From the NCBI RefSeq assembly GCF_000027125.1, contig NC_017626.1: a DNA stretch of 64,000 bases; one strand, written 5' to 3'. Positions 56,622-56,833 of the stretch are shown piece by piece; within the stretch, counting starts at the first letter, position 1; each line of letters starts with the position of its first letter. The notes under the pieces were generated by a model. It saw only the letters and a list, made by a program, of their open reading frames with translations. It was not told where the DNA came from and made no database searches. This stretch comes from Escherichia coli 042. GTDB taxonomy: Bacteria > Pseudomonadota > Gammaproteobacteria > Enterobacterales > Enterobacteriaceae. The position numbers were made by a program, and so were the translations under genes.

Positions 56622-56675
56622 CTTTATCACTCCTGGGTGTGAATTAACGTTTTAAAATCTTTTGCTGTCTGGTGT

Positions 56676-56728
56676 GCCGGATGTTTTGTCGGATGCGGCG
56701 TGAACGCCTTATCCGACCTACGTCCGAC
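56676..56728. repeat. REP element in the purC leader/upstream region
   Basis: gccggatgttttgtcggatgcggcgtgaacgccttatccgacctacg. Confidence 0.6.
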
Positions 56729-56774
56729 AAACAAATTTTGTGCGAATTACCGCTAAAATCGCATTTTTCTGCCG

Positions 56775-56790
56775 ACGCACACGTTTGCGT
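56775..56790 (-). promoter_or_regulatory. PurR operator (PUR box) upstream of purC
   Basis: The minus strand reads ACGCAAACGTGTGCGT, one mismatch from the recalled PUR-box palindrome ACGCAAACGTTTGCGT; it lies between the bamC terminator and purC. Confidence 0.5.
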
Positions 56791-56800
56791 ATCATATCAG

Positions 56801-56826
56801 AAAAAAGGGCCGGATGATTCCAGCCC
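56801..56826 (-). terminator. Rho-independent terminator downstream of bamC
   Basis: The minus strand reads gggctggaatcatccggccc followed by tttttt, directly after the bamC stop. Confidence 0.5.
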
Positions 56827-56833
56827 TGTATTT

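What the first reader, a model, noticed from the sequence alone, without database searches (positions are those of the whole stretch)
56631..56833. purC upstream region combines a near-consensus PUR box, a REP element and the bamC terminator
Within 210 bp the minus strand shows, in order, the bamC terminator hairpin with U-run, a PurR operator one mismatch from consensus, a REP palindrome, and then purC with its RBS. A REP sitting between the operator and the start codon implies a structured leader that may affect mRNA stability or translation in addition to PurR repression.
Basis: partly seen in the sequence, partly recalled or inferred. Interest (0 to 1): 0.3.

Follow-up and report, generated by a model that had tools for sequence, protein, structure and literature searches.

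The report
Known E. coli purC control region
This is the already-characterised bamC–purC intergenic region of E. coli: a terminator, a promoter overlapped by a PurR repressor site, and a common repeat element (REP181) that was inserted into the purC mRNA leader only in Escherichia and shows no sign of being needed for regulation.

Summary
On the minus strand lie the bamC stop codon, a terminator hairpin with a T-run (56827–56800), a PUR box one mismatch from consensus (56790–56775), a REP (core 56721–56688), the SD AGGAG (56634–56630) and the purC ATG (56621). All of it is already known in E. coli K-12. The same 16-mer is the ChIP-verified PurR site (Cho 2011). A mapped TSS (Kim 2012) converts to window 56784, inside the PUR box. 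The repeat is annotated REP181.

Comparison with other genera adds context. The terminator, A/T-rich −10 region and PUR box are conserved across Enterobacteriaceae, with the box 65–76 nt from the ATG in most. Escherichia alone carries a 103-nt leader insertion with the REP, flanked by an imperfect 13-nt direct repeat.

Nothing supports a regulatory role for the REP. It shows no compensatory changes, predicted SD accessibility is unchanged when it is deleted in silico, the sense leader is not listed in a Rho-binding screen, and RNase E bypasses simple stem-loops.

Verdict: ordinary and already known. The hypothesis of leader-mediated control is untested and unlikely.

The parts
56834..56836 (-). 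bamC stop codon TAA (bamC CDS 56834–57868)
   Evidence: K-12 bamC 2597831..2598865; offset window + 2,540,997.
56800..56827 (-). bamC intrinsic terminator: hairpin AGGGCTGGA-ATCA-TCCGGCCCT (56827–56806) plus a T-run to 56800. It occupies about −43 to −16 of the purC promoter.
   Evidence: 9 pairs, 6 G-C. (−16.1 kcal/mol, z −4.6). (16 genera/species: 95.7% of cells paired, 3 pairs with compensatory changes, 0 of 500 shuffles as good).
56791..56799 (-). purC promoter, extended −10: TG (56799–56798), one base, then TATGAT (56796–56791). There is no good −35; that position falls in the terminator loop and 3' arm.
   Evidence: Read from the sequence, placed by the TSS of Kim 2012. The consensus scan found no −35/−10 pair. 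The assignment is an inference.
56784..56784 (-). purC transcription start site (+1, A), giving a 163-nt 5' UTR
   Evidence: Kim et al. 2012, Table S1: 2595803(−), 24 reads, 51-mer ending ...GATACGCAAA. Coordinates converted.
56775..56790 (-). PurR operator (PUR box) ACGCAAACGTGTGCGT, spanning −6 to +10 of the promoter
   Evidence: unique in the window, 0 of 100 shuffles. (same 16-mer listed as the ChIP-chip PurR site of purC). (identical box in 24 further loci, mirror form in 2).
56740..56752 (-). Direct repeat copy 1, CGGTAATTCGCAC, immediately 5' of the insertion
   Evidence: family D1 (13 nt, 85%, spacing 103). (gapped extension to ~31 nt; 1 of 1,000 shuffles reaches the score).
56637..56739 (-). 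Escherichia-specific 103-nt insertion in the purC leader. The boundaries are ambiguous by the 13-nt repeat. Its last 13 nt are direct repeat copy 2, CGTTAATTCACAC (56649–56637).
   Evidence: absent from Enterobacter, Citrobacter, Pseudocitrobacter, Phytobacter, Cedecea and others; present in E. coli, K-12, E. albertii and L003. (its non-REP 3' part is single-copy and present in 5,425 of 5,426 E. coli genomes).
56677..56722 (-). REP181, a single REP; palindromic core 56721–56688, at +64..+97 of the mRNA
   Evidence: 2 mismatches to consensus. (naRNA4, 38 bits, below gathering score). One search inverted repeat I1. (−18.8 kcal/mol). Named REP181 at K-12 2597674–2597719 in Table S15 of preprint 10.64898/2026.03.23.713779.
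56675..56729 (-). Outer stem TGTCGGA (56729–56723) / TCCGGCA (56681–56675) enclosing the REP hairpin. It is predicted in E. coli and not conserved in E. albertii or L003.
   Evidence: 61-nt element −30.1 kcal/mol, z −5.6. (5 of 9 outer pairs broken in other Escherichia, none compensated).
56630..56634 (-). Shine-Dalgarno AGGAG of purC
   Evidence: Conserved as GGAG in all 16 aligned sequences. Predicted largely unpaired.
55908..56621 (-). purC coding sequence (237 aa, ATG at 56621–56619)
   Evidence: 100% identical protein in E. albertii and E. coli loci.

Best explanation
The region is a compact module conserved across Enterobacteriaceae, plus a later passenger insertion. The bamC intrinsic terminator ends dapA–bamC transcripts. 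Its 3' arm and T-run lie inside the upstream part of the purC promoter, which works through an extended −10 (TGaTATGAT) and starts transcription at 56784. The PUR box spans −6 to +10. PurR loaded with hypoxanthine or guanine therefore represses by occupying the start site and excluding or trapping RNA polymerase. In the Escherichia lineage a 103-nt segment carrying one REP (REP181), flanked by an imperfect 13-nt direct repeat of the target, was inserted between the operator-proximal leader and the SD. This lengthened the leader from about 60 to 163 nt. The REP is transcribed and very probably folds into a stable hairpin, but it is best read as a fixed, nearly neutral insertion with at most a small effect on purC expression. 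Shown here or in print: the elements and their positions, the TSS, in-vivo PurR occupancy, terminator covariation, and the lineage restriction of the insert. Inferred: the −10 assignment, the steric repression mechanism, and the near-neutrality of the REP.
For: - Elements and coordinates.
- Identity with annotated K-12 bamC/purC.
- PurR ChIP-chip site with the same 16-mer and adenine-dependent occupancy: (PMC3159470).
- TSS with 163-nt UTR, the only purC-assigned TSS found in the stored text of that table: (PMC3415461).
- Terminator hairpin covaries across 16 sequences.
- PUR box identical in 24 other loci at 65–76 nt from the ATG in most (130 nt in Kluyvera), but at 168–169 nt only in Escherichia.
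- Alignment shows a clean 103-nt insertion with a flanking 13-nt direct repeat.
- Only the REP core is repetitive. The rest of the insert is single-copy and fixed in E. coli.
- No compensatory substitution in the REP or outer stem among Escherichia.
- REP-core deletion does not change predicted SD accessibility.
- The sense leader is not listed among Rho-binding peaks that overlap REP181, and there is no bicyclomycin-sensitive transcript.
- RNase E bypasses orthogonal stem-loops.
Against: - No experiment on this REP was found, so neutrality is inferred from weak evidence. The pair count rests on only 4 Escherichia sequences, which gives little power.
- The insert is fixed in 5,425 of 5,426 E. 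coli genomes and ≥99% identical in 5,185. This fits recent common ancestry but does not exclude selection.
- Deleting the whole insert in silico lowers predicted SD accessibility from 0.585 to 0.39, so a modest translational effect of the insert as a whole (not the REP hairpin) cannot be excluded.
- The leader downstream of the REP is C>G (12 C to 5 G at +81..+110), a pattern reported downstream of REPs in Rho-terminated transcripts.
- The TSS rests on one dataset with 24 reads. The 1990 primer-extension paper could not be read.
Confidence: 0.72

Rival explanations
1. REP181 serves the upstream operon. It would act as a back-up 3' stabiliser or leaky terminator for dapA–bamC transcripts that read through the intrinsic terminator, which is the classical REP role of protecting RNA on its 5' side.
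For: - REPs resist 3'→5' exonucleases and stabilise upstream RNA (summarised in PMC6061677).
- The 2026 preprint shows REP325 stabilising the upstream gene and attenuating the downstream one, and reports upstream-biased expression in REP-containing tandem pairs. It lists bamC–REP181–purC as such a pair.
- The REP lies 113–146 nt after the bamC stop codon on the same strand.
Against: - A strong, covarying intrinsic terminator sits directly after bamC in every genus and already supplies a 3' hairpin.
- Genera without the REP manage with the terminator alone.
- The REP lies downstream of the purC TSS, so most RNA containing it should come from purCp.
Confidence: 0.12
2. REP181 and the C-rich tract after it form a leader attenuator. 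A fraction of transcripts from purCp would pause or terminate, partly Rho-dependently, before the SD. This would lower purC output in Escherichia relative to relatives.
For: - REP325 attenuates downstream transcription in a partly Rho-dependent way.
- BIME-associated attenuation is cited (Espeli 2001).
- The leader at +81..+120 has 11–12 C against 5 G.
- The long untranslated leader (163 nt) leaves RNA free of ribosomes.
Against: - In the Rho-binding screen table, REP181 overlaps only a weak peak on the opposite strand (log10 enrichment 0.46–0.61), with no bicyclomycin-sensitive transcript. The sense leader is not listed.
- Only about 50 nt separate the REP from the SD, which is short for a rut site plus a release zone (my inference).
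- No purC entry appears in the held supplements of the 5'-UTR 3'-end study, though those files may be incomplete.
- It is a single REP, not an array like REP325.
Confidence: 0.08
3. The insertion as a whole, not the hairpin itself, raises purC translation. It would separate the SD from sequences that otherwise pair with it.
For: Predicted mean unpaired probability of SD..AUG is 0.585 with the insert. It is 0.39 after deleting the 103 nt, and 0.43 in the Citrobacter leader.
Against: - This is a thermodynamic prediction only, and the difference is small.
- Deleting the REP core alone has no effect (0.586).
- Relatives with short leaders keep the same SD and start context.
Confidence: 0.06

Closest known systems
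pur regulon operators of E. coli (PUR boxes at purF, purL, purMN, purEK, purHD, purT and others) bound by the LacI-family repressor PurR
   Same: A 16-bp imperfect palindrome with a central CG, one mismatch from consensus and overlapping the promoter (−6..+10). PurR occupies it in vivo, and more strongly with adenine. This site is itself the published purC operator.
   Different: Nothing differs; it is the same site. A minor point: across genera the box always keeps one asymmetric departure (T11→G, or the mirror A6→C in two loci), and the perfect palindrome never occurs.
REP / BIME elements of E. coli (here REP181; model REP325/naRNA4)
   Same: A ~34-nt GC-rich imperfect palindrome with a GTAG end. 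It is extragenic, multi-copy (7 in this window; a median of 9 megablast places per genome for the 341-nt query) and forms a stable RNA hairpin.
   Different: It is a single REP rather than an inverted pair or array, so it is not a BIME. It sits in a 5' UTR downstream of a promoter, not in a 3' UTR or between cistrons where REP functions have been shown. It came in with about 57 nt of non-repetitive sequence and a 13-nt flanking direct repeat.
Intrinsic terminators that overlap the next gene's promoter in compact tandem gene pairs
   Same: A GC-rich hairpin and U-run directly after the stop codon, with covariation across genera. The T-run runs into the A/T-rich −10 region of the next promoter.
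   Different: Termination efficiency and any interplay with PurR bound 10 bp downstream were not measured here.
5'-UTR cis-regulatory RNAs (riboswitches, attenuators, RNase E obstacles)
   Same: A long (163-nt) structured leader. Folded from 56760, a start I chose before the TSS was identified, a 161-nt stretch covering most of the leader and the first 22 nt of purC gives z = −3.4 against shuffles.
   Different: There is no Rfam family hit other than the REP and no covariation. The structure is lineage-specific. It is a simple orthogonal stem-loop, which RNase E bypasses, and the SD is not sequestered.

Membership tests
PurR operator (PUR box) | 16-bp imperfect palindrome close to ACGCAAACGTTTGCGT with a central CpG | tested here: met
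   15 of 16 match at 56790–56775 with the central CG present. It is unique in the window, and none of 100 shuffles gave a ≤1-mismatch match.
PurR operator (PUR box) | Located at or overlapping the promoter of a purine-regulated gene | tested here: met
   It spans −6..+10 relative to the mapped TSS at 56784. The gene is purC.
PurR operator (PUR box) | Bound by PurR | not testable with these tools
   Published ChIP-chip lists the identical 16-mer as the purC site (PMC3159470). In-vitro binding (He et al. 1990) is recalled from memory and was not read.
PurR operator (PUR box) | Conserved in orthologous promoters | tested here: met
   Identical in 24 other Enterobacteriaceae loci and mirror-image in 2. 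Sites with 2–4 mismatches occur in Serratia, Erwinia, Morganella and others.
REP element | ~35-nt GC-rich imperfect palindrome matching the REP consensus, with a GTAG/CTAC end | tested here: met
   2 mismatches over 34 nt. Inverted repeat of 14-nt arms. Hairpin −18.8 kcal/mol. The consensus I used is from memory.
REP element | Many dispersed extragenic copies in the genome | tested here: met
   7 copies in the window against 0 in shuffles. A median of 9 megablast places per E. coli genome for the 341-nt query, while the non-REP flank is single-copy. Annotated REP181.
BIME (bacterial interspersed mosaic element) | Two or more REPs in alternating orientation with conserved linker motifs | tested here: not met
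   There is only one REP in the intergenic region. The eutG–eutH array at 26869–27352 provides the contrast.
Intrinsic (Rho-independent) terminator | GC-rich hairpin immediately followed by a U-run, downstream of a stop codon | tested here: met
   The hairpin starts 6 nt after the TAA. −16.1 kcal/mol.
Intrinsic (Rho-independent) terminator | Structure maintained in evolution | tested here: met
   95.7% of cells paired, 3 pairs with changes on both sides, 0 of 500 shuffles as good, and slid controls at 23–59%.
Intrinsic (Rho-independent) terminator | Transcripts end at the U-run in vivo | not testable with these tools
   No 3'-end dataset with this locus could be read.
Structured cis-regulatory 5' leader (riboswitch/attenuator) | Conserved structure with covariation, or a match to a described RNA family | tested here: not met
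   Rfam at E ≤ 1 gives only the REP-derived naRNA4 hit, below its gathering score. There are 0 compensatory pairs. The structure is absent outside Escherichia.
Sigma-70 extended −10 promoter | TGn motif directly upstream of a −10 hexamer, correctly spaced from a mapped TSS | tested here: met
   TG-A-TATGAT at 56799–56791, with the hexamer at −12..−7 of the TSS at 56784. No −35 match. Promoter activity itself was not tested.

The most novel reading that the evidence does not exclude
The filled-versus-empty-site comparison (Escherichia vs Citrobacter and Enterobacter) shows a REP that arrived with about 57 nt of unique sequence and an imperfect 13-nt direct duplication of the target, possibly ~31 nt. 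That footprint is not expected from a RAYT/IS200-like cut-and-paste event. It could be a trace of the still-unknown mechanism by which REPs spread. Alternatively or in addition, the insert could have been co-opted in Escherichia to tune purC output after transcription.
Probability: 0.1. Interest if true: 0.4.

Novelty: already known. Interest (0 to 1): 0.1.

Why it matters
It matters little. The modest added value is comparative. The terminator–promoter–operator module is conserved across Enterobacteriaceae, while the REP is an Escherichia-only insertion. This makes purC a clean natural case for testing whether a REP placed in a 5' UTR, rather than the usual 3' UTR, does anything. It also gives one well-defined empty-site/filled-site pair for thinking about how REPs insert.

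Tried and rejected
- **Original purC paper and other TSS sources.** Tiedeman et al. 1990 (PMID 2120198, PMC526926) and Thomason 2015 (PMC4288677) are not held.
- **False literature hits.** The 'purC' word-start hits in PMC2760140, PMC3479197 and PMC11208160 were all the word 'purchased'.
- **Second TSS or 3'-end dataset.** Adams 2021 and Ettwiller 2016 supplements hold no purC entry or coordinate. Dar 2018 and Conway 2014 have no supplements held as text. Adams 2021 does not mention REPs in its main text.
- **Direct literature searches.** Searches for 'purC promoter' and for REPs in 5' UTRs gave nothing relevant.
- **Promoter scan.** The consensus scan found no −35/−10 promoter in 56500–57000. 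The promoter was placed from the TSS instead.
- **Plus-strand terminator-like sites.** The sites at 56666–56683 and 56567–56581 were rejected as chance. The first is the REP flank read backwards, and three sites is not far above the 0.9 ± 1.0 expected from shuffles.
- **Leader peptide.** The tiny ORF ATG-CGA-TTT-TAG at 56764 was rejected. It has no SD, and the ATG is ACG in K-12.
- **Similarity between the REP flank and the terminator arm.** The 11-nt match (family D2) was considered as a sign of local duplication and set aside as probably chance.
- **BIME membership.** Rejected, because there is only one REP.

Full report
**What is in the sequence**

The window is E. coli. The genes around the finding are tmcA, ypfJ, purC, bamC and dapA on the minus strand, with gcvR and bcp on the plus strand. 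The 341 bases around the finding are 100% identical to one E. coli strain. At least 80% of them are covered in 5,405 of 5,426 complete E. coli genomes. K-12 MG1655 differs at five intergenic positions and has no indels, so K-12 coordinate = window + 2,540,997.

Reading the minus strand:
- The bamC stop codon TAA is at 56836–56834.
- The terminator hairpin AGGGCTGGA-ATCA-TCCGGCCCT is at 56827–56806, followed by a T-run to 56800.
- The sequence TGATATGAT is at 56799–56791.
- The PUR box ACGCAAACGTGTGCGT is at 56790–56775.
- The REP core is at 56721–56688.
- The SD AGGAG is at 56634–56630, and the purC ATG is at 56621.

**Are the elements more than chance?**

- The terminator is called by the scan (9 pairs, 6 G-C) and folds at −16.1 kcal/mol, z = −4.6.
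- The PUR box is the only match to ACGCAAACGTTTGCGT in 64 kb, at ≤1 or at ≤3 mismatches. None of 100 shuffles gave a ≤1-mismatch match.
- The REP is two mismatches from the 34-nt REP consensus I supplied from memory. It is one of seven copies in the window, against none in shuffles.
- Rfam returns only a sub-threshold match to naRNA4, which is REP325-derived.
- The REP hairpin alone folds at −18.8 kcal/mol. With an outer stem (TGTCGGA/TCCGGCA) the 61-nt element reaches −30.1 kcal/mol, z = −5.6.

**What is already known about it**

Cho et al. 2011 (PMC3159470) list ACGCACACGTTTGCGT, the plus-strand reading of the same 16-mer, as the PurR site of purC. It lies inside a ChIP-chip peak that is stronger with adenine.

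Kim et al. 2012 (PMC3415461, Table S1) give one purC TSS at 2,595,803(−) in old coordinates, with 24 reads and a 163-nt 5' UTR. The 51-mer "−50 + TSS" ends ...GATACGCAAA. Converted, +1 is window 56784, the third A of the PUR box. It follows that:
- the box spans −6 to +10;
- TATGAT (56796–56791) is the −10 hexamer at −12..−7;
- the hexamer is preceded by TG at −15/−14, an extended −10;
- the −35 position falls in the loop and 3' arm of the bamC terminator, where there is no match to TTGACA. This explains why the consensus scan found no promoter.

The REP is annotated REP181 at K-12 2,597,674–2,597,719, which is window 56677–56722. It is classed as a tandem bamC→purC REP in Table S15 of a 2026 preprint (10.64898/2026.03.23.713779).

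Both are answered by published data: the REP is in the mRNA at +64..+97, and PurR binds.

**Comparison with other species**

A scan of species-representative genomes with PurC returned 80 loci, from Escherichia out to Pseudomonas.

- The exact box ACGCAAACGTGTGCGT is present in 24 loci besides the window, including Enterobacter, Citrobacter, Pseudocitrobacter, Phytobacter, Kluyvera, Pluralibacter, Cedecea, Siccibacter and Pseudescherichia. Its mirror image occurs in two more.
- Outside Escherichia the box starts 65–76 nt from the ATG in most loci, and the spacer is about 106–119 bp. In the window, E. albertii and a second E. coli-labelled genome it starts at 168–169 nt, and the spacer is 211–212 bp.
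- The alignment shows one clean block of 103 nt present only in Escherichia.
- The Citrobacter leader CGGCAGAAAAACGCAATATTTATCGTTAATTCACAC|CCAGGAG is matched in E. coli by copy 1 before the block (30 of 36 positions). The last 13 nt of the block, CGTTAATTCACAC, repeat the target exactly.
- The repeat finder reports this as a 13-nt direct repeat at 56752–56740 and 56649–56637, 85% identical, with spacing 103. A gapped extension to about 31 nt was reached by 1 of 1,000 shuffles.
- Only the REP core is repetitive. The 51 nt on its 3' side occur once per genome, in 5,425 of 5,426 E. coli genomes.
- Kluyvera, one Enterobacter species and Siccibacter carry other, unrelated extra sequence at about the same place, so this part of the leader tolerates changes in length.

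The terminator, by contrast, is conserved in structure. Over 16 sequences, 95.7% of cells pair, three pairs change on both sides (CG/UA/UG at one position), no shuffle does as well, and slid controls fall to 23–59%.

**Does the REP do anything for purC?**

I found no experiment on this REP. The indirect evidence points to "little or nothing".

1. Relatives regulate purC with the same operator and SD and no REP.
2. Among four Escherichia sequences, the REP and outer stems show no compensatory change, and 8 of 20 pairs vary only by disruption. K-12 itself loses the closing pair. Four sequences give little power.
3. I folded the real leader from +1 to +40 of the coding region. Mean unpaired probability of SD..AUG is 0.585. 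It is 0.586 after deleting the REP core, 0.39 after deleting all 103 nt, and 0.43 for Citrobacter. The hairpin does not touch the SD. If anything, the insert as a whole slightly frees it.
4. REPs act as barriers to 3'→5' exonucleases and so protect RNA on their 5' side (summary in PMC6061677). The purC coding region is on the 3' side.
5. [quoted passage not shown]
6. REP325 attenuates downstream transcription in a partly Rho-dependent way, and the leader after REP181 is C>G (12 C to 5 G at +81..+110). However, in the Rho-binding screen re-tabulated by that preprint, REP181 overlaps only a weak peak on the opposite strand (log10 enrichment 0.61 and 0.46). There is no bicyclomycin-sensitive transcript, and the sense leader is not listed.

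**Most likely mechanism**

The functional unit is the conserved module of terminator, extended −10 promoter and PUR box over the start site. PurR with its corepressor blocks initiation sterically. The terminator insulates purC from dapA–bamC transcription while sharing its T-run with the promoter's A/T-rich region.

REP181 is a passenger: an insertion fixed before E. coli and E. albertii split, transcribed and folded, with at most a small effect. I put this at about 0.7. Three rivals remain:
- a back-up 3' stabiliser or terminator for bamC read-through, about 0.12;
- a leader attenuator, about 0.08;
- a mild translational enhancer through spacing, about 0.06.

**Comparison with known systems and novelty**

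Every element belongs to a well-known family and is itself already catalogued: the purC PUR box, REP181 and the purC TSS. The region is not a BIME, because it has a single REP, and it is not a conserved cis-regulatory leader. What I could not find in print is:
- the lineage restriction of the insert;
- the 13-nt flanking direct repeat;
- the fact that the PUR box always keeps one asymmetric departure from the perfect palindrome.

These are small points. The flanking repeat is mildly curious, because RAYT/IS200-type mobilisation is not expected to duplicate the target (from my own knowledge), and the mechanism of REP insertion is still described as not established. One case cannot carry that argument.

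**Limits**

- The TSS rests on one dataset.
- The 1990 primer-extension paper and several 3'-end datasets could not be read.
- Salmonella and E. fergusonii were not sampled.
- All statements about RNA structure are predictions.

**Verdict**

The region is already known and of low interest.

Noticed in passing
window 26869–27352 (K-12 locus L082 539–723): The eutG–eutH intergenic REP array has a 100-nt unit, each holding two REPs in opposite orientation. It is present in 4.8 copies here and 1.9 copies in K-12 MG1655 (REP178), so copy number varies between strains.
   Followed up: partly
window 5558–5591: Another single REP, two mismatches from the consensus (GCCGGATGCGGCGCAAACGCCTTATCCGGCCTAC). 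Its context was not examined.
   Followed up: no
window 56775–56790; loci L002–L034, L064: The purC PUR box keeps exactly one departure from the perfect palindrome wherever it is conserved. It is ACGCAAACGTGTGCGT in 24 loci and the mirror image ACGCACACGTTTGCGT (relative to purC) in L021 and L064. The perfect palindrome never occurs. This may reflect tuning of affinity or a constraint from the overlapping start site (+1..+10).
   Followed up: partly
window 56595–56728, + strand (K-12 2597592–2597725): A weak in-vitro Rho-binding peak (Delaleau 2022, as re-tabulated in preprint Table S15) lies antisense to the purC leader and start codon and overlaps REP181 by 45 nt. Log10 enrichment is 0.61 without NusG and 0.46 with it, and there is no bicyclomycin-sensitive transcript.
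   Followed up: partly
L018 (Kluyvera) ~1370–1490; L021 (Enterobacter sp. BIGb0383); L031 (Siccibacter): Other genera carry different extra sequence (about +62, +33 and +20 nt) at roughly the same leader position between the PUR box and the SD. Some of it is palindromic. This stretch of the leader varies in length across Enterobacteriaceae.
   Followed up: partly
window 56676–56686 and 56809–56819: There is an 11-nt similarity (GCCGGATGTTT / GCCGGATGATT on the + strand) between the 3' flank of the REP and the 3' arm of the bamC terminator. It is probably chance or a shared REP-like CATCCGGC motif.
   Followed up: no
window 56784–56772 with 56680–56671 (minus strand): In the minimum-free-energy fold of the full leader, bases +3..+12 (GUGUGCGUCG, from the right half of the PUR box and the bases after it) take part in a helix whose outer pairs join GUGUGC to GCACAC just 3' of the REP. 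This closes the first ~113 nt into a multibranch structure. The CACAC is kept in E. albertii and L003. It is a prediction only.
   Followed up: no
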